DNA of 64,000 nt from Eledone cirrhosa (Eukaryota). This document shows, in pieces, positions 44,902-61,360 of this stretch. Below the pieces are notes generated by a model. The model saw nothing but the letters and a program-made list of their open reading frames with translations. It made no database searches and was not told where the DNA came from. The DNA lies in assembly GCA_964016885.1 (NCBI GenBank), contig OZ024740.1, positions 99,820,001 through 99,884,000 of the forward strand. The letters are read 5' to 3'. The position numbers and the translations under genes are program-made. The first letter of the stretch is position 1. Each line of letters opens with the position of its first letter.

Positions 44902-44964
<63 letters not shown>

Positions 44965-45144
44965 TAATAAAAATAATGAATAAAAACAAAGAAACAGTTC
45001 CTTATATTAAAAAAATTCATCATTTTACGATCGTTTCTAGGATATATATGTTTGTGGTGGTATGTATATCATATAGATCTATGTAAAATTTGTACAAACT
45101 ATCAGAGGGAATATACATACCTATACATATATATGCTGTCTTCA

Positions 45145-45259
<115 letters not shown>

Positions 45260-45363
45260 GAATGTATATATAGTGTATTTTGCAATAGACTGTATGCTTA
45301 ATTAAAAGCATTTCGAAGACCATACGCTATTGTTTAAGAGTAGTGACAGTCTCACGTATTTTA

Positions 45364-45458
45364 ATTTTCAGCAAACAGGGGAGATAAAGCTGACAGAACT
45401 CTGTTTCGCAATTGTTGGTGCTTATCAAGGCTAAGTACTCCGCCTGTTTGCTGAAAAT
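45364..45458 (-). ncRNA. Type I hammerhead ribozyme (U3-A8 core) with long extended stem I
   Basis: AGCC-TTGATAA-GCA ccaacaat TGC-GAAA-CAGA gt TCTG-TC-AGCT, enclosed by GGAG/CTCC and the 16-bp perfect stem ATTTTCAGCAAACAGG/CCTGTTTGCTGAAAAT. Confidence 0.82.
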
Positions 45459-45499
45459 CATGAATGTTTGATTCTTAGAGAATTCTAGTAGTAATCAGG

Positions 45500-45581
<82 letters not shown>

Positions 45582-45582
<1 letters not shown>

Positions 45583-46758
45583 TAGCAGTGTATCCTGGCG
45601 TTGCACGGGTAAGAACATTGGTAATAGCACCTCCAATGAGAAACGTTTATCTGTGAGTGCCTGTTAAAAACTCACGAAAATACACCGACAGGAAACTTGT
45701 TTTATTTGGAGAAAATTAAGAAGTTCAAAGTACAGTTTAGCTCTCTACGTGCATTGTTCATAGAAATAATGTTGAGCCCCTTCTTTTCATACTCCTCTGT
45801 TTTGGCCTATTAGAGTAAATGTGAAAGCGAAAGTCACAGGTTAAGTTGGCAGAAGGTTCCCGTGCAATAGCAGTAAGGCGTAGGCTACTTACCTCAAAAG
45901 TTCATTCGCACTCTTGTCACTAATTTACACTTTCTCTCTATCCGTCTCGGTGCAGCCCCTTGCGAATATCTCGCTTAGGCTTGGTGTAGATTTGCCCCCG
46001 ATCCATCTGCCCGATGCACATGTCCGCTTTATACGGCCTTTGGAGGAAGGAGTGACCAGCAGTACGTTGTTCGGTATTACTACGAAAAGGTGCAGCAGAG
46101 AATCCCACGTGAACTAACAGCTGGGGAGGAAACTGCTTACCTCGACGATTCATTCGCAATCGTTCTTGTCAACGCTCCGTTTAGTTGGTATATGTTGGTC
46201 TACAGTTAGATGAATGGCGCACAAAGGGTTAATGTTTATTGGCAAGAAGTGGCAATTGGGTTGGCTTGCCTCGCTTATATTATATATTAAAATAACAGAT
46301 TAAAGTTTAAGCAAAGAATCGCTGCTTTCACCCTTAACGGGATCTTCTGAAACTAAAAAAATTCAATCTGTGAACGCAGAAGTAAATATTTCGAAAAACG
46401 TTGCAACCGAAGGAAAGCAGTAAGACGATACTTTCGTTCGTGAAGACGTTCCCAGGCAATGAACGGAAAATATCGAACATAATACGTCATCAATGTTTGT
46501 CATAATGTCTTAATGGAGACAGCCAGATATATAGTCACATATTATAAGGGCGCGACGGAGATCGATAACCGGCGCCTAACACCCCTTTAACAACAGAAAA
46601 TTGAAAAATAAAAGCTGCAGTTAATAACTTTAGATCGCAAGGAATATTTAAATGCAAGTGTGAAGTCAATCGTAGTAGAAATATGGATTTGTATAGTCTT
46701 TGCAAAAATGAGGACACACACAAACACAGACAACTACAGTATTATATATATGTATAGA
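45582..46758 (-). mobile_element. Non-autonomous Helitron
   Basis: Minus strand begins TCTATACATATAT.. and ends CCCGTGCAACGCCAGG..CTAG, inserted between A and T. The two ends could belong to different copies. Confidence 0.6.
46285..46492 (-). mobile_element. Solo 3'-terminal fragment of the Naiad pLTR
   Basis: Direct match to 40397-40601. Confidence 0.88.
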
Positions 46759-47864: not shown

Positions 47865-49785
47865 CTGAATCAGTCTAAAGCTTTCGATAGGGTTGACCAT
47901 CGTTACCTGCGGTGCTCGAGGCGACAGGCTTCGGACCTGTGTTCAGGGGTTGGATTGCTGCAATGCACAACAGCAACATCTGCTCAAGAGTCAAGGTGAA
48001 CGGTTACCCCTCGAAGCAGTTCCATATCACGCGATCCATTCGACAGGGATGCCCTCTCTCCTCCCTTCTGTACGTACTGGCTCTCGAACCACTACTGCGG
48101 AAGTTGGAGCTATTGCAGGGCATCACTCTGGAACCGGGACTGCGGAAAGCGGCGTCGACCTACGCCGACGACGTGGCAGTAATTGTATCGAGCGCCTCGC
48201 AAATCGAGGAAGTCGGCACCTTACTGAAGGAATACGAAAGTTTCACAGGAGCCAAGCTGAACCGGGACAAGTCCATCGGTTTGCAACTCGGATCGTGGAG
48301 AAGCAAACCGATGCCTTCCGATGGCGTCGTCGGACGCTGGACGGAAGGACCGGTAAAGCTGCTCGGGGTCTGGTTTCATCCGGACCTCCAGGTGGAGAAG
48401 AACTGGAACGAAGTGACGGCCAAGGTGTTTGCACTCATCCAGAAGTGGGCCGAGTGCAAACTATCCTTGAAAGGTCGAGCGGATGTGGCGAACACTTTTA
48501 GAGCGTCCGCCATCTACTCACGCTTGACCGTCGTGTCTTGTCCAGCCAAAACGCTCACCAAAATGGAGCGCGCGCTCTTCCAATTCCTTTGGAAGAGGCG
48601 GGCTCCTTTGGTGAGAAGATCCATCTGCTGCCAACACCCTTCTAACGGAGGGCTGGGGATGCCGTGACTGACGATGCGCAAACACTCGCTGAGGCTGCGG
48701 CATCTCTACGTATTCATCACCGGACAACCGGTGTGGGCCCCGTTCGTGAGGCGAGCCTTCCCACGACTCGTCTCGCTGACCGAGCTGCAGTCCTGGGTCA
48801 AGTAAAGACCGAGGAAAATGGGTGACTGGCACATCGAATGTGCTCCGTCGCTCACAGCCCTCTGGCAGGCGGACACGGCGATCAGTGAAGACTCCACTTC
48901 GTCATTCTATAGAGGGTTGATCCGCAGCAAGTGCGACGACGTGCTCGGTGAAACTCTAGGCGTAGAGGAAGATGAACTGGTCAGTATGTTCGGTAAGACC
49001 TTCCGCCCGGGACTGATGGACAATTTCCAAAAGTCTCTGGCCTGTCAGTGCTACCGAGGAGCTCTACCTGTTCGAGACAAGCTCTACAGACATGGGCGCC
49101 CGGGCAGGGACCCTGCAAAAAAGATCTGTGCGAATGTGCGTAGGAGACGAAGAAACCGTCCCGCACGCATTAAATACACTGCACGGGCGTCACCGACCTG
49201 TAGGGCTATGTAGAACGACTATTGTCGCGGGTGGGATCAATCCGTTTGACCACCGAATCCATTGTCATGATCAAACCACCACCCTCCTTCAAAAACGAAG
49301 GAGAGGCGGTTTTCCTTTGTGTGATAGCTATGGCGAAAGAGGTTGTATGGTCGACAAGGTTGAAAGGGCTGAGGTCAGACACCTTTCTCTCCGGCCAACA
49401 ACTGATTCTTTTTTTCAAATACCACTTTGGAAGAAGAATCAGGATGGAGAGAGAGAGGTGCTGTACCCCAGCAAGTTTTATGAAAGGTGGGTGAAAGTGG
49501 CGAGAATGGTCCGAGGGAATGGGCCTTCTCTCTATATCAGCCTGTAGGTTGAGGAAAAGGAGGAGGAAAGGAAGGGAGTACAAACTCTTCGTACTCCTCG
49601 AGATGAGGGTTGCACATTATTTCGGGGGAATGTGTTACACATATGAAATGTCTCCCCCTATTGGGGAAAATCGACTAATCTATAAATTGCATTTGTGATA
49701 ATATTTTACACGTTTTTAATGTATGTAAACCTCCCCCTTTGTATTTGTTCCCTTCTTTTGTGCCCATGTGGATAATAAAGAAACA

Positions 49786-52043: not shown

Positions 52044-55000
52044 ATGGATGTGTTAAGAGTAGGATGTTTGAATGCACGTGGTCTGGGCTCAACTTGGAAG
52101 CAAGCAAAGCTTCTAAATGACCTCAGGTCACGTGGTATAAATGTAATGGTTATCTGTGAGACTCGGATCAGCGTCGTGCGGCAGCTGGCCCCTACCTTCG
52201 ATGACTTTGAGGTGCATGCATCTCTCTGTCAACCTGGAGATGGGGGTGGGGTTGTCGTACTGCTGGAAAATCACCTGGGTCTCACCGTACAGGTTGTTCA
52301 CTCGGACCTAAAGGGTCGTTTATTGGTGCTAGACGTTGGCAGTAGTGTAGGTGCGGCCTTGAGACTGGTCGCAATCTACTCCCCTTTCGGAGCTGAACAG
52401 CTCGACTACTTCCAGCGTTTGGAGACTTTTTTGGGAACGTCGCGTTCCCTGCTTCTAGCGGGGGATTGGAATGACATCCTAGATGCACGTTGGGACTATC
52501 CAGGAGCATGTCCTAATAGAGGGGGGTGTAACAGCCTCAAGGGGTTACTCGACCGTTTTAACTTGGTCGATAGATTTCGACTAGATTTTCCAACTGTGCC
52601 AACCTGGACTTGGACGAACCACAGTGGTCAATCTAGATCGTACTTAGATAGATTCTTAGTTAGAAGTAAGGATAGGGACATATTAAGCTGTCCAGAAATG
52701 CTCACGGTTGGTTATACGGATCACAAATTAGTGACCTGCGTAGTCAATCTCGAGAAAACACATAAACAGGGTCCCGGTTACTGGAAACTTAATTTGTCTT
52801 TACCGGCAAAAGAGACTTACAGAAACCGGATTAGCAGATTAGTTAAGGAGAGGTTGACGGGTGCAATCGTCAACAACCGATGGTGGGCATCTCTCAAAAG
52901 AGAGATTAGAACAGAATCAATAATTTATAGCAAGATGTTAGCTGCCGATAGGAATAGAAACGAGAAAGAATTAACAGGTAAATTAGGAGAAGCAATCAAG
53001 AGCGAAGATGTGGCCAGAGTGCTGGCATCGAGGACGGCCTTGAACCAGTTTTTCGATGCAAAGCACGAAGGCTGCGTCATTCGAAGTAAAATACGTGCTC
53101 TAGGTAATGAGGGGGCCAAAGCCGTTGGCTGGGCCCGCGTGACAGAAGCTAAGAGTGGAAATCGAACCACCATCCGGTCTTTGCAAGACGAGGATGGACG
53201 GGTGATCCGGGAGCCTAAGCAGATGTGCGAGGCCTTTCAAAGGCACTTTGCCCGATTATTCGGGGGAGGCGAGGGTCCGGGCGGTGACGTGGATCTCGGT
53301 CCATACCTCGACGGCCTGCCGCGTCTCTCGAGCGAAGAGGCAGAGTCCTGCGAGGGACCAATCTCGGCTGATGAGATCGGGGATGCGCTGAGCCAATGCA
53401 GCAGACACAAATCTCCAGGTCTCGATGGTATACCTTACGAACTTTATTTAGCAATGCCGGTCTTCTTCTCCGAACTCCTCGAAGCGGTCTGCTGCAATTG
53501 GCAGCAGAACGGGAGAATTCCTTGTTCTGTAACCAAGGGCGTAGTCTCGCTGGTGAGGAAGGACGAGAACAAGGGGGATAGTATAAATAATTTTCGGCCC
53601 ATAACCTTGCTAAACACAGGGTTAAAGATTTTGGCCAAGGTGATAGCAAAGAGGTTGGCGCTTGTCGTGGGTGGCCTGGTGGGAGATGCGCAGACATGTG
53701 CTATCCCATCCAGGTCCATTCACGATAACCTCCACCTCATGCAATACATCATAGAGAGGGTTGGCAACAAACCCGGCTTCGGTGGGGCCCTGATCAACTT
53801 GGATCAGTCTAAGGCATTCGATAGGGTCGACCATGGTTACCTGGATGCGGTGCTAGCGGCGGCTGGGTTCGGTCCTGTTTTCAGAGGCTGGATCACTGCC
53901 TTACATAACAACCACATCTGTTCTATGATCAAGGTGAACGGCTACCTCTCGAAGCCGTTCGAAATCACAAGATACATTCGACAGGGGTGCCCTCTCTCCT
54001 CCCTTCTGTACGTATTGACTCTCGAGCCTTTACTGAGGAAGTTGGAGTTGTTGCAGGGTATCCCCCTGGAACCAGGATTGAGCAAAGCGGTGTCGGCCTA
54101 CGCCGATGAAGTAACAGTCATGGTATCGACCGACTCGGAGATCGAGGCGATCGGTACCTTACTGGAGTATTACGAAAGGTTCTCAGGAGCGAAACTGAAC
54201 CGGGAAAAATCCATCGGGCTGCAACTCGGAACGTGGAGAGGCAGACCGATGCCTCCCGACGGTGTCGTCCGACACTGGACGGATGGCCCGGTGAAGTTGC
54301 TTGGGGTCTGGTTTGGACCGGACCTCCAGGTGGAAAAAAACTGGGACGAGTTACGAACAAGGTGTTTGCACTAACCCAGAAATGGGCCAAGTGTAAGCTG
54401 TCCCTAAAAGGTCGGGCGGAGGTGGCGAACATTTACATAGCGTCCGTCACTTACTACCACTTGACTGTCGTGCCTTGCCCTAAGGAAACACTCACCACCA
54501 TGGAACGCATGCTCTTCCAATTTCTTTGGAAGAAGCGGCCTCCTATGGTGAAAAGATCCATCTGCTGCCAACAACCTTCGAAAGGAGGGCTGGGGATGCC
54601 GTGGTTGATGATGCGTAGGCACGCATTAAGGCTACGGCACCTACAGGTATTCCTCACTGGTCAACCGGTGTGGGCTCCGTTCGTGAAACGAGCCTTTCCG
54701 AGACTCGTCTCGCTCACCGAGCTGCAGTCCTGGGTCAAGCAAAGATCCGGAAAACTGGGAGACTGGCACACTGAGTGTGCCCAGGCGCTCAGGGCTCTCT
54801 GGTAAGCGGGACAGGCCATCGGTGGAGAATCCACCTCATCATTCTATAGAGGGCTGGTGGCTAGCAGGGGCGATGACACCCTTGGAGAGTCGCTGTACAT
54901 GGAAGAGGACGAACTGGCCAGCCTGTTCGGTAGGACTTTCGGCCCGGGACCAATGGACAACTTCCAGAAGTCACTAGCCTGGCAGTGCTACCGGGGGGCT

Positions 55001-58700: not shown

Positions 58701-61360
58701 AGACGAGTTCTTCAACGTGAAACACGAAGGTTGTATTGTCAGAAGTAGAACACGTGCTCCAAGAAACGAGGGAGCCAAAGCTGTTAGCTGGGCCCGAGTG
58801 GCAGAGGCGAAAAGTGGCAACAAATCCACAATTCGGTCTTTGCAAGACAAAGATGGACGCATTCTGTTTGAATCCAAGCAGATATGCACGACCTTCCAGC
58901 AGCATTTTGCACAACTGTTTCGGAAAAGCGGTACGTCAAGCGAGGTGATGGACTTCAGTTCCTACCTCGATGGTGTACCACGGCTCTCGAGCACGGATGT
59001 AGAGAGCTGCGAAAGGCCGATCACAGCGGGCGAAATAGAAGATGCCCTAGGCCGCTGCGGGAAACGCAAATCACCTAGTTTAGATGGTCTACCCTAAGAG
59101 TTTTACATAGGCATGCCAGACTTGTTCTCTGGTGTCCTCGAAGCGGTCTACTGCAACTGGCAGCAGAACGGGAGGATTCCCAGTTCTGTAGGCAGGGGTG
59201 TAGTAACGCTGATCAGAAAATATGAGAACAAGGGGGATAAGATAAGCAATTTCAAGCCCATAACTCTGCTCAACACAGAGTTAAAGATTGTGGCCAAGGT
59301 GATAGCAACAAGGCTGGCGCTTGTCGTCGAGAACCTAGTAGGGGAAGCGCAAACGTGTGCAATCCCGACCAGGTCCATACACAACAACCTCCACCTCATG
59401 CAATACACCATAGAGAGCGTAGGTTGTAAATCTGGCTTCGGTGGGGTTCTGATCAATTTATATCAGTCTAAGGCATTTGGTAGGGTCGACCACCAATACT
59501 TGGAAGCGGTTCTCAAGTGGCCGGCTTTGGGCCCGTCTTCAGAGGCTGGATCGCTGCCATGCACACCAGAATCTGCTCAGCAGTCAAGGCGAATGGCTAC
59601 CTATCGGAGCCATTCCAAATCATGCTTCCATCCGTCATGGATGCCCTCTCTCCTCCATTCTGTATGTACTGAGTCTCGGGCCATTAATGCGGAAGTTGGA
59701 GCTGTTGCAGGGCATCCTGATCGAACCAGGACTGCGGAAAGCAGCGTCAGCCTATGCCGATGAATTAACCGGAATGGTGTCGAAAACCTCGGAAATCGGG
59801 GTAGTCGGCAACCTATTACAGGAATACGAAACGCTGACAGGAGCAAGACTAAACACAAACAAATCTGTCGGTTTGCAACTCGGCACAGGGAGAGGCAAAC
59901 TCATGCCTTCCGACATTGTCGTTGGACGTTGGACGGAAAGTCTGGTGAAATTGCTCAGGGTCTGGTTTGGTCCAGACCTCCAGGTGGACAAGAACTGGAA
60001 CGAGGTCATGGCGAAGGTGTTTGCACTCACCTAGAAGTTGGCTGAGTGCAAACTCCCCTTGAAAGGTCGAGCAGAGGATGAAAACACTTACATAGCGTCC
60101 ATCATCTACTACCACTTGACAGTCGTGCCTTGTCCCCGCGAATACCTCACCAAAATGGATTGCCTACTTTTCAAGTTCCTCTGGAAGAAACAGGCTCCAT
60201 TGGTGAGGAGATCCATCTGTTGTCAACACCCTTCTAACGAAGGGCTAGGCATGCCTCGGCTGATGATGCGCAAACAAGCACTGAGGCTACGCCATCTCCA
60301 GGTATTCCTGACCGGTGAACTCGTGTGGCTGTTGTTTGTGAGACAAGCTCTTCCACAACTCGTCTCACTAACAGAGCTGCAGTCATGGATCAAGCGAAGA
60401 CCGAAAATGAGTGCCTTCAGGCGCTCACAGCTCTCTTCCAAGAAGAAACGACAATCAGCGGGGACTCTACTTCGAGATTCTATAGGGGGTTAGTGGAGGA
60501 TAAGTGCGACAACATTCTCGGGGAAACTCTAGGCATCGAGGAGGACGATCTGACTAGTCTGTTCTAGAGGACTTTCCGTCCAGAGCCTATGGATAACTTC
60601 CAGTGGTCTCTGGCCAGGCAGTGCTACCGAGGAGCTCTACCAGTTCGAGACAAAATCTACAGGCACGGACGCCCTGGCAGAGATCCTGCCAAAGGACCTG
60701 TCTAAGACCCAAGCAGGACATCGAAACCGTTCTGCACGCAATTGTTCAGTGACCAGGGGTAAGTGACCTGTAGAATTATGTTGAAAAGCTACTGTCACGT
60801 GTGGGACGCATCCAGTTGCCAGCCGACTCCATCGTGAGTATCAACCCGCCGCCTTCATTTAAGAATGAAGGAGAGGCGATTTTCCTCTGTCTGGTGGCTA
60901 TGGCGAAAGAGGTAATATGGTGGACTGAGGGCAAACACCTTTCTCTCCGGACAACAACTTATCCCCTTCTTTAAGTACCACTTCAGAAGGAAGGTGAGTG
61001 GGGAGAGAGAGGTGCTACACCCCAGTAAATTCCCTGAAAGGTGGGTGAATGTGGCGAAAATGGGCCGAGTGAATGGGCCTTCTCTGTATATAAACCTGTA
61101 GTTTGAGGAAGATAAACAGAGGGAAGACAGGAACACCTACAAAACCTGTTCCTGGTGTTGAGAGTTATTCTATCCACGGGGTGTAAAACAACCCTGCAGT
61201 AACATTTCCCCCTATTGGGTATTTCAATTGTTATTTTATTATATATAGTTTAATGTTATTTATTAATTTTAAAGTTATATGATTTTTATGTAAAACCTCC
61301 GCCGTCATGTCTCGTAATGTGCCTTTTTTCGTACGGCCCTGTGTCAAATAAAGAAAGATA
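55701..61360 (+). mobile_element. Tx1-clade LINE copy C, full length, heavily decayed
   Basis: ORF1 remnants at about 55900-57696; ORF2 remnants at 57737-61101 collinear with copy B; AATAAA at 61347, then a degenerate (TCTA)n. Confidence 0.9.

What the first reader, a model, noticed from the sequence alone, without database searches (positions are those of the whole stretch)
45364..45458. Stand-alone hammerhead with a 16-bp clamp helix in a 240-bp island between microsatellites
Seen: a UUGAUAA core, 3-bp stem II with an 8-nt loop, 4-bp stem III and a GUC site. Stem I continues through an internal loop (TACTT/TTAT), GGAG/CTCC and a perfect 16-bp helix. There is one C.A mismatch at the first stem I pair. 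Known: internal loops in stem I contact loop 2 in fast natural type I hammerheads. Inference: unlike the minimal PLE motifs, this one could fold as a monomer and may define a tiny ribozyme-bearing mobile unit.
Basis: partly seen in the sequence, partly recalled or inferred. Interest (0 to 1): 0.72.

Follow-up and report, generated by a model that had tools for sequence, protein, structure and literature searches.

The report
Hammerhead retrozyme copy in TA microsatellite
This is one worn, shortened copy of an abundant 319-base non-coding jumping repeat whose RNA is predicted to cut itself with a hammerhead ribozyme that carries an already described U-A core swap, so it is a solid example of a known kind of element and not a new one.

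Summary
The motif is in the sequence as described, on the minus strand at 45458..45364. It is not stand-alone. It lies in a 254-base, 5'-truncated copy (45250-45503) of a ~319-base non-coding repeat with at least 1746 first-look candidates in this 3.0-Gb animal genome.

In the family majority, stem I is perfect and stem II has 4 bp with a CAAAAA loop. The window's C.A mismatch and 3-bp stem II are decay of this copy. The UUGAUAA core is the family state.

Structure is under selection:
- Two subfamilies differ at three diagnostic sites, and two of those are the two sides of one stem II pair.
- A sister family is 77% identical over the whole unit and has the canonical CUGAUGA core.
- Across both families the core pair is 27 C-G and 22 U-A with 0 unpaired.
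- Six of the 16 pairs of the "clamp" helix change on both sides.

The insertions carry the published marks of Penelope-like elements: variable 5' ends, two fixed 3' ends, head-to-head arms, a short tail at one end and (TA)n targets.

Verdict: an animal non-LTR retrozyme with the published U3-A8 hammerhead variant, so a new member of a known kind. Cleavage and RNA circles are untested because no RNA run was listed. This scan has noted such retrozymes before on other DNA of this genome.

The parts
45250..45503 (-). 5'-truncated single-arm copy (254 nt) of the ~319-nt retrozyme unit. In unit numbering from the cleavage site it runs 208 -> 319|1 -> 142, so it spans the cleavage junction uncut and ends in the unit's own (TA)5 run.
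   Evidence: locus L001 is this window stretch; 93.7% identity over 254 nt to a reference unit, and the only copy in the window.
45364..45458 (-). Type I hammerhead motif with extended helix I (95 nt).
   Evidence: Family alignments A1 and A2. Pair counts.
45443..45458 (-). 5' strand of the 16-bp outer helix (the 'clamp'). It pairs with 45364-45379.
   Evidence: Six of 16 pairs change on both sides between the two sister families.
45364..45379 (-). 3' strand of the 16-bp outer helix.
45422..45428 (-). Core strand UUGAUAA, that is U3 and A8 in place of C3 and G8.
   Evidence: Present in 38 of 38 family copies. Columns 31 and 36 of A2 read 27 C-G plus 22 U-A with 0 unpaired.
45408..45421 (-). 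Stem II and loop 2. It is GCA/UGC with an 8-nt loop here, and GCAC or GUAC / GUGC or GUAC with loop CAAAAA in the family majority.
45392..45407 (-). GAA, then stem III (ACAG-AGUU-CUGU), then C17. The predicted cleavage is between 45392 and 45391.
   Evidence: The position follows from standard hammerhead numbering. Cleavage itself is not tested.
45380..45391 (-). 3' strand of stem I (AGCU), 3' side of the internal loop (UUAU) and distal stem strand CUCC.
45429..45442 (-). Bulged C, distal stem strand GGAG, 5' side of the internal loop (UACUU) and 5' strand of stem I (AGCC, where the family majority has AGCU).
45504..45583 (.). (TA)n tract on the 5' side of the insert, taken to be the target microsatellite.
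45147..45249 (.). (TA)n(GT)n(TA)n tract on the 3' side of the insert.
   Evidence: In the sampled loci 50 of 74 arms are followed by (TA)n.

Best explanation
The motif is a real type I hammerhead with the U3-A8 core variant. It sits in a 254-nt, 5'-truncated copy of a ~319-nt non-coding repeat that was likely inserted into a (TA)n microsatellite by the enzymes of a Penelope-like retrotransposon. In other words it is an animal non-LTR retrozyme.

Shown here:
- The family is abundant and young, with about 3.7% mean divergence per site from the majority.
- All 12 core positions scored (with U3 and A8 taken as the family state) plus a permitted base at position 17 are kept in 75 of 85 copies.
- Helices are kept through compensatory changes within the family and against a sister family that has the canonical C3-G8 core.
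- The copies have variable 5' ends and two fixed 3' ends (unit positions ~142 and ~168).
- Arms often pair head to head, with the ~26-nt tail at one end only.
- More than half of the sampled arms are longer than one unit.
- Most arms abut (TA)n.

Inferred life cycle:
1. Multi-unit or read-through transcripts would self-cleave after GUC, which is C45392 on the minus strand in this copy. This would give 319-nt RNAs with 5'-OH and 2',3'-cyclic phosphate ends.
2. The long helix I (4 bp, internal loop, 4 bp and 16 bp) would hold the two ends side by side for a tRNA-type ligase to close the circle.
3. A Penelope-like RT/GIY-YIG enzyme would then copy the circle or a multimer into a nicked (TA)n tract, starting at the unit's (UA)5 run.

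The window copy itself keeps the core. It has one broken pair in stem I and one in stem II, and it is most likely a dead copy.
For: Family and copy number:
- 59 scored matches at 92-95% identity, from 1746 first-look candidates of which 40 were scored.
- Exact family patterns match 225 and 364 times against 0 for the reversed controls.

Core:
- UUGAUAA is present in 38 of 38 copies.
- Of the first 100 of 225 listed matches, 97 read UUGAUAA, 2 CUGAUAA, 1 UUGAUGA and 0 CUGAUGA (my hand count).

Covariation:
- Among 57 full units the only three diagnostic sites between the subfamilies are a bulge base and both sides of stem II pair 10.2-11.2. That pair is C-G in 22 units, U-A in 33, and other in 2.
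- The sister family is 77% identical over the whole unit and has 3037 first-look candidates. It carries CUGAUGA in 33 of 42 copies (my hand count) and UUGAUAA in none.
- On alignment A2 (22 copies of this family plus 27 of the sister), 94.6% of cells pair, against 38-52% when partners are slid. The C3-G8 column pair reads 27 CG plus 22 UA with 0 unpaired. Six of 16 outer-helix pairs and 3 of 4 stem II pairs change on both sides.

Insertion anatomy:
- Of 74 arms, 36 end at ~142, 32 at 160-176 and 6 elsewhere. Their 5' ends spread from 1 to 285. 42 of 74 are longer than 319 nt, and 50 of 74 are followed by (TA)n.
- There are 25 head-to-head pairs in 48 loci. Of the 20 pairs with both ends classified, 16 join one ~142 end with one ~168 end (one-sided binomial p 0.006).
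- An array of about 25 units was found.
- These are the features published for Penelope-like elements: 5' truncation, partial tandems, an adjacent inverted 5'-truncated copy, a 30-40-bp tail at one end and (TA)n targets (PMC8557442, passages).

Other:
- The genome holds at least 10597 GIY-YIG first-look candidates. The top-scoring Penelope-like loci carry a minimal hammerhead with the same UUGAUAA core and end in (TA)n.
- The unit has no open frame above 60 codons and is 34% G+C.
- U3-A8 is a published natural covariation, stated there to be active in vitro (PMC3088659, section 8 read; PMC4209133, passages).
- Animal retrozymes of 170-400 nt are published (PMC7229834, abstract and part 1 of the Results).
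Against: - No cleavage assay and no RNA evidence exists for this family.
- Rfam hammerhead models score it below their gathering threshold: 15.6 bits for the window copy and 26.5 bits for a majority copy, against 52.
- The three sister-family loci scanned gave no hammerhead match at E <= 0.01.
- Stem I next to the core and stem III do not covary. They are simply conserved.
- The minimum-energy fold of majority copies is an alternative pairing 2.9 kcal/mol below the hammerhead fold.
- Minimal hammerheads of Penelope-like elements cleave poorly in vitro (PMC4209133).
- The one Penelope-like family I compared has no sequence similarity to the unit (local score 61, against a shuffled mean of 78). 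The mobilising element is therefore not identified.
- The covariation rests on few independent events: two families and a few subfamilies.
- The sampled loci were chosen because they contain the hammerhead region, which inflates the share of long arms.
Confidence: 0.8

Rival explanations
1. The fold is conserved but no longer catalytic. The three-way junction with its long hairpin would serve as a recognition or stability element for the retrotransposition machinery, and the U3-A8 hammerhead would be a disabled relic that does not cut in vivo.
For: - No cleavage or RNA data exist (one search listed no RNA holder).
- Rfam scores are below gathering.
- Every insertion spans the 319|1 junction uncut, which uncleaved transcripts would also give.
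- Minimal hammerheads of Penelope-like elements are poorly active in vitro (PMC4209133).
Against: - A helix-only role does not explain why the unpaired core bases are kept: 75 of 85 copies keep all scored core positions.
- It also does not explain why the tertiary 3-8 pair switches as a pair between the sister families, 27 CG plus 22 UA with 0 unpaired.
- U3-A8 hammerheads are reported as active in vitro (PMC3088659 section 8, citing PMC1986816, which I did not read).
Confidence: 0.12
2. It is a MITE-like or foldback DNA element, or a plain satellite. The 16-bp inverted repeat would be what matters, at the DNA level, and the hammerhead likeness would be chance.
For: - The perfect 16-bp inverted repeat folds equally well on both strands.
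- The window copy alone scores E 0.33 against Rfam.
- Tandem arrays exist.
Against: - The inverted repeat is internal to the 319-nt unit, 63 nt apart, and not at the ends of the element.
- Copies have fixed 3' ends and variable 5' ends, as retroelements do.
- The core and all three stems are kept in a sister family only 77% identical.
Confidence: 0.03
3. This particular copy is a domesticated, stand-alone ribozyme that acts on a host transcript at this locus.
For: The full 95-nt motif is intact enough to draw and keeps its core.
Against: - It differs from the family majority by changes that break one pair in stem I and one in stem II.
- It lies between microsatellites, next to another young repeat and among LINE fragments.
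- No conservation beyond that of the repeat family can be shown.
Confidence: 0.03

Closest known systems
Animal non-LTR retrozymes (Cervera and de la Pena 2020, PMC7229834; Li, Clavereau and Pollet 2026, bioRxiv 10.64898/2026.07.22.740005)
   Same: - One type I hammerhead per short non-coding unit. The published range is 170-400 nt or 150-450 bp, and this unit is 319 nt.
- Multi-copy tandem and dispersed arrangement.
- G+C below 50% (34% here).
- A predicted highly self-paired monomer.
- A proposed link to Penelope-like elements.
   Different: - The core is U3-A8 rather than canonical.
- Expression and circularity are not shown here.
- The insertion anatomy (two fixed 3' ends, head-to-head arms, (TA)n target) is documented here from genomic copies. 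I did not see it described in the parts of those papers that I read.
U3-A8 natural hammerhead variants (Perreault et al. 2011, PMC3088659; minimal hammerheads of Schistosoma mansoni Cercyon Penelope-like elements, Cervera and de la Pena 2014, PMC4209133)
   Same: The same compensated swap of the C3-G8 tertiary pair to U3-A8. It occurs in a retroelement context, and in this genome it is also found in the minimal hammerheads of Penelope-like loci.
   Different: This is a full-size hammerhead with a helix III and a canonical-type helix I internal loop, not a minimal motif. The canonical and swapped cores are found here in two sister retrozyme families that are homologous over their whole length.
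Canonical animal type I hammerheads (Schistosoma / HH9 type, Rfam RF02275)
   Same: - Best Rfam match.
- Helix II of 4 bp with an A-rich 6-nt loop.
- A 'UAC' on the 5' side of a helix I internal loop, about six positions from the core if the U.U oppositions are counted.
- A short helix III with a palindromic loop.
   Different: - The score is below gathering (26.5 at best, against 52).
- The core is U3-A8.
- Only 4 Watson-Crick pairs lie next to the core.
- Helix I continues into a further 4 + 16 bp.
Insertion architecture of Penelope-like elements (Craig et al. 2021, PMC8557442)
   Same: 5' truncation, partial tandems, an adjacent inverted 5'-truncated copy, a short tail at one end only, and (TA)n microsatellite targets.
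   Different: - This element encodes no RT or endonuclease.
- The tail here is about 26-29 nt, against 30-40 bp in the paper.
- No sequence similarity was found to the one Penelope-like family examined.

Membership tests
Hammerhead ribozyme, type I | Conserved core: C3 U4 G5 A6 N7 G8 A9, G12 A13 A14, A15.1-U16.1, and H at position 17. | tested here: met
   The window copy and 75 of 85 family copies keep every scored position, with U3 and A8 in place of C3 and G8. That swap is a published compensated variant (PMC3088659). The sister family has C3 and G8.
Hammerhead ribozyme, type I | Three helices around the core with helix I open-ended, supported by covariation. | tested here: met
   94.6% of cells pair, against 38-52% when partners are slid. 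Both-side changes occur in stem II (3 of 4 pairs), in the outer part of helix I (6 of 16) and in the 3-8 pair. Stem III and the four pairs of stem I next to the core are conserved without covariation.
Hammerhead ribozyme, type I | A score at or above the gathering threshold of an Rfam hammerhead model. | tested here: not met
   There is no gathering-level match in the window. HH9 scores 15.6 bits for the window copy and 26.5 bits for a majority copy, against 52.
Hammerhead ribozyme, type I | Site-specific self-cleavage 3' of position 17. | not testable with these tools
   This needs in vitro transcription or RNA end mapping. No RNA run was listed.
Animal non-LTR retrozyme | A short (150-450 bp) non-coding unit in multiple tandem or dispersed copies, with one type I hammerhead each. 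| tested here: met
   The unit is 319 nt. Arrays reach about 25 units. At least 1746 first-look candidates exist. No open frame exceeds 60 codons.
Animal non-LTR retrozyme | Low G+C (below 50%) and a self-paired monomer. | tested here: met
   G+C is 34%. The circular fold is -78.1 kcal/mol, z -5.6 against mononucleotide shuffles, with 60% of bases paired.
Animal non-LTR retrozyme | Expression as unit-length linear and circular RNA. | not testable with these tools
   No RNA holder was listed. The four runs laid are of unknown kind and are held as contigs only.
Non-autonomous passenger of Penelope-like elements | Insertion marks: 5' truncation, partial tandem, an adjacent inverted 5'-truncated copy, a tail at one end, and a microsatellite target. 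| tested here: met
   compared with passages of PMC8557442.
Non-autonomous passenger of Penelope-like elements | Sequence similarity to the terminal (pLTR) region of an autonomous Penelope-like element in the same genome. | tested here: not met
   Among the 30 best GIY-YIG loci, the only matches to either retrozyme unit were in L084, a sister-family copy inserted next to the element. A local alignment to one Penelope-like 3' region scored below shuffled controls. This covers only 30 of at least 10597 candidates.
MITE / foldback DNA transposon | Terminal inverted repeats at the element's ends, with target-site duplication. | tested here: not met
   The 16-bp inverted repeat is internal to the unit. 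The ends behave like retroelement ends.

The most novel reading that the evidence does not exclude
The hammerhead makes a 319-nt RNA circle, and that circle, not a linear transcript, is the template for a Penelope-like enzyme. The enzyme copies it from two fixed start sites (the (UA)5 run and a site about 26 nt downstream) into both strands of a cut (TA)n tract. This would explain the head-to-head arms, the arms longer than one unit and the one-sided tail, and it would give a simple non-coding reporter for the still unsolved Penelope transposition mechanism.
Probability: 0.35. Interest if true: 0.6.

Novelty: new member of a known kind. Interest (0 to 1): 0.3.

Why it matters
The copy in the window is of little importance by itself. 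The family is useful in three ways:
- It is a clean natural experiment on the hammerhead core. Two retrozyme families homologous over their whole length carry C3-G8 and U3-A8, with no mixed state in the 49 aligned copies.
- It shows that standard covariance-model scans miss abundant animal hammerheads.
- Its many young insertions record, in a 319-nt non-coding unit, the odd end structure left by Penelope-like retrotransposition. That could help to work out the mechanism.

Tried and rejected
- Rfam at gathering thresholds over the whole window gave nothing.
- A covariance model (R1) was built to look for diverged relatives in the genome.
- Within-family covariation alone (A1) is too shallow to be informative.
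- RNA evidence: no RNA holder was listed. Four runs of unknown kind from one study were laid, but they are contigs only, fragmentary and repeat-collapsed. They show 320-nt 'goes back' joints and opposite-strand joints that genomic arrays would also give, so they say nothing about expression, ends or circles.
- Search for the autonomous partner: the 30 best GIY-YIG loci had no similarity to either retrozyme unit, apart from one sister-family copy inserted next to a Penelope-like element in L084. A local alignment to a Penelope-like 3' region scored below shuffled controls.
- The block at 44960-45146 was tested as a possible part of the element. It is not, and belongs to another repeat family.
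- The apparent high coverage of that block was low-complexity noise.
- The sigma-70 promoter and terminator scan is not meaningful for an animal genome and was ignored.
- Target-site duplications cannot be read because the insertions lie inside (TA)n.
- Look-ups of earlier findings by place (near) and by the window's sequence gave nothing. A look-up with a full unit gave only an unrelated bacterial hit.
- Four literature calls failed on term format and were re-sent corrected.

Full report
**Observation**

- a perfect 16-bp outer helix (45458-45443 with 45379-45364);
- GGAG/CUCC;
- an internal loop, UACUU opposite UUAU;
- stem I, AGCC/AGCU, with a C.A opposition next to the core;
- UUGAUAA;
- a 3-bp stem II with an 8-nt loop;
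- GAA;
- stem III, ACAG-AGUU-CUGU;
- C17 at 45392.

A cut would leave a new 5' end at 45391.

Taken alone, this copy is not significant as a hammerhead. Rfam finds nothing at gathering level in the 64-kb window. The local scan gives Hammerhead_HH9 at 15.6 bits, E 0.33, against a gathering score of 52. The very low folding energy is due to the inverted repeat and is matched on the plus strand.

**It is a copy of a large family**

The 243-bp 'island' has 59 scored matches at 92-95% identity in the window's own genome (3.0 Gb, 1796 contigs). These come from 1746 first-look candidates, of which only 40 were scored.

All 38 full-length motif copies in the first 30 loci carry UUGAUAA. In the majority of copies:
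- stem I is the perfect AGCU/AGCU;
- stem II is 4 bp with loop CAAAAA;
- the stem III loop is the palindromic AGCU.

So the window's C.A mismatch and its 3-bp stem II are changes of this copy or of a small subgroup. Of 85 copies examined, 75 keep every scored core position and 16 also keep all 32 pairs. The window copy keeps the core but has one broken pair in stem I and one in stem II.

Exact family patterns occur 225 and 364 times in the genome, against 0 for the reversed controls.

**The unit**

Tandem copies define a 319-nt unit. Its properties:
- It has no open frame above 60 codons.
- It is 34% G+C.
- As a circle it folds into a branched, 60%-paired structure closed by the long helix I.
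- Mean divergence per site from the majority is 3.7%, so the family is young.
- One array holds about 25 units.

The window holds a single copy, at 45250-45503.

**Evidence that the fold is selected**

Within the family, the first 100 of the 364 listed matches split at stem II pair 10.2-11.2 into 62 U-A, 31 C-G, 2 U.G, 1 C.A and 4 other (my hand count).

In 57 full units the two subfamilies differ at only three diagnostic sites in 319 nt. These are the bulged base and the two sides of that stem II pair.

A pattern with the canonical core found two places. They led to a sister family:
- It is 77% identical over the whole unit.
- It has 3037 first-look candidates.
- Its hammerhead has CUGAUGA in 33 of 42 copies, and UUGAUAA in none (my count).
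- It has a GUU cleavage site, a 3-bp stem III with a triloop, and U.U at 10.1-11.1.

On an alignment of 22 copies of the window's family and 27 of the sister family:
- 94.6% of cells pair, against 38-52% when partners are slid by 1-3 columns.
- The tertiary 3-8 pair is 27 C-G plus 22 U-A with none unpaired.
- Six of the 16 pairs of the outer helix and 3 of the 4 pairs of stem II change on both sides.
- The four pairs of stem I next to the core, and stem III, are conserved but do not covary.

Within the sister family, further subfamilies switch C-G to G-C in distal helix I and U-A to C-G in stem II.

Primary-sequence identity between the two majorities is no higher in the hammerhead region (75%) than elsewhere (74%). 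What is kept there is pairing and the core.

These are few independent events, from two families and some subfamilies, but they point the same way.

**How the copies were made**

I number the unit from the cleavage site, so that 1 is the A after GUC and 319 is C17. Among 74 arms in the sampled loci:
- the 3' ends fall at ~142, the unit's (TA)5 run, in 36 arms;
- at 160-176 in 32 arms;
- elsewhere in 6 arms;
- the 5' ends are spread from 1 to 285;
- 42 arms are longer than one unit;
- 50 arms are followed by (TA)n.

A caution applies: the loci were chosen because they contain the hammerhead region, which favours long arms.

Twenty-five of 48 loci hold two arms head to head, with the 5' ends facing each other. 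Of the 20 pairs with both ends classified, 16 join one ~142 end with one ~168 end (p 0.006).

These are the published hallmarks of Penelope-like elements: strong 5' truncation, partial tandems, an adjacent inverted 5'-truncated copy, a 30-40-bp tail at one end only, and (TA)n targets (PMC8557442, passages).

The window copy is a single arm, 208 -> 319|1 -> 142, set between (TA)n tracts. Every copy that carries the motif spans the 319|1 junction. The template was therefore either uncleaved or re-ligated (circular) RNA. This is an inference.

**The likely helper**

The genome is full of Penelope-like elements, with 10597 GIY-YIG first-look candidates. In the 30 best loci, 14 motif hits in 13 loci show a minimal hammerhead of the same recurring sequence, with the same UUGAUAA core, downstream of the endonuclease domain. 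In the nine of these loci that I displayed, the element runs into (TA)n, in several after an extra ~34-nt segment.

I found no sequence similarity between this element and the retrozyme unit. The partner is therefore not identified.

**Monomer or dimer**

The stem III hairpin alone is worth only -1.8 kcal/mol. Two copies can form a palindromic stem III duplex of -20.1 kcal/mol in the majority and -12.4 in the window copy. The hammerhead fold of majority copies lies 2.9 kcal/mol above an alternative minimum.

Both monomeric and dimeric action remain possible. The literature reports both modes for animal type I hammerheads (PMC4209133; PMC7229834 abstract).

**Comparison with what is known**

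- U3-A8 is a published natural covariation of the C3-G8 pair, stated to be active in vitro (PMC3088659, section 8 read). That statement cites PMC1986816, which I saw only in the reference list.
- About 1300 U3-A8 minimal hammerheads were reported in Schistosoma mansoni in connection with Cercyon Penelope-like elements (PMC4209133, passages).
- A 2026 preprint argues that these retrozymes derive from Penelope-like elements (10.64898/2026.07.22.740005; abstract and section 14 read).

The present family fits that class feature by feature, except that expression cannot be tested here.

Earlier notes of this scan on other DNA of the same genome describe a 320-bp U3-A8 retrozyme array and 591-bp families with two fixed ends. 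I reached the same reading from my own calls.

**Verdict**

It is a new member of a known kind, and self-cleavage and circular RNA remain untested.

Noticed in passing
window 44960-45146, between (TA)n tracts at about 44904-44959 and 45147-45230: A second, unrelated young repeat sits in the same microsatellite. It is 97-98% identical to 44 other scored places, from 765 first-look candidates. Elsewhere it often occurs as close inverted pairs or as inverted pairs 2-6 kb apart, which suggests the end of another (TA)n-targeting retroelement.
   Followed up: partly
loci L083-L112 (own genome), about 450-700 nt downstream of the GIY-YIG matches: The top-scoring Penelope-like loci carry a minimal hammerhead with a UUGAUAA core (…CAUUUGAUAAUGCAUAAAAAUGCUGAAACCGG…). 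They end in …TTTTCA(TA)n. Several have an extra ~34-nt segment followed by (TA)n again, which resembles the retrozyme's two kinds of 3' end.
   Followed up: partly
L084:2441-2871 (own genome, C1 near 267.12 Mb): A two-armed copy of the sister retrozyme family lies directly after the (TA)n end of a Penelope-like element. Either both use the same target, or this is a nested insertion.
   Followed up: no
L031 (own genome C1:268922500-268932000): This array of about 25 retrozyme units has a higher-order pattern. Composite units (1-261 joined to 64-319) recur every three to four units, and inverted blocks lie at both ends.
   Followed up: no
unit positions about 183-242 and 64-83 of the retrozyme (in the window roughly 45469-45503 and 45309-45328): These blocks are 90-95% identical between the two sister families, more than the hammerhead region (75%). 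They are candidates for promoter or enzyme-recognition elements.
   Followed up: no
window 52044-54374 (+), and also 1874-2479, 47912-48667 and 59113-59763: These are LINE-type open frames. The 776-aa frame matches the endonuclease/exonuclease/phosphatase family and RVT_1, and the others match RVT_1. The window is largely retroelement debris.
   Followed up: no
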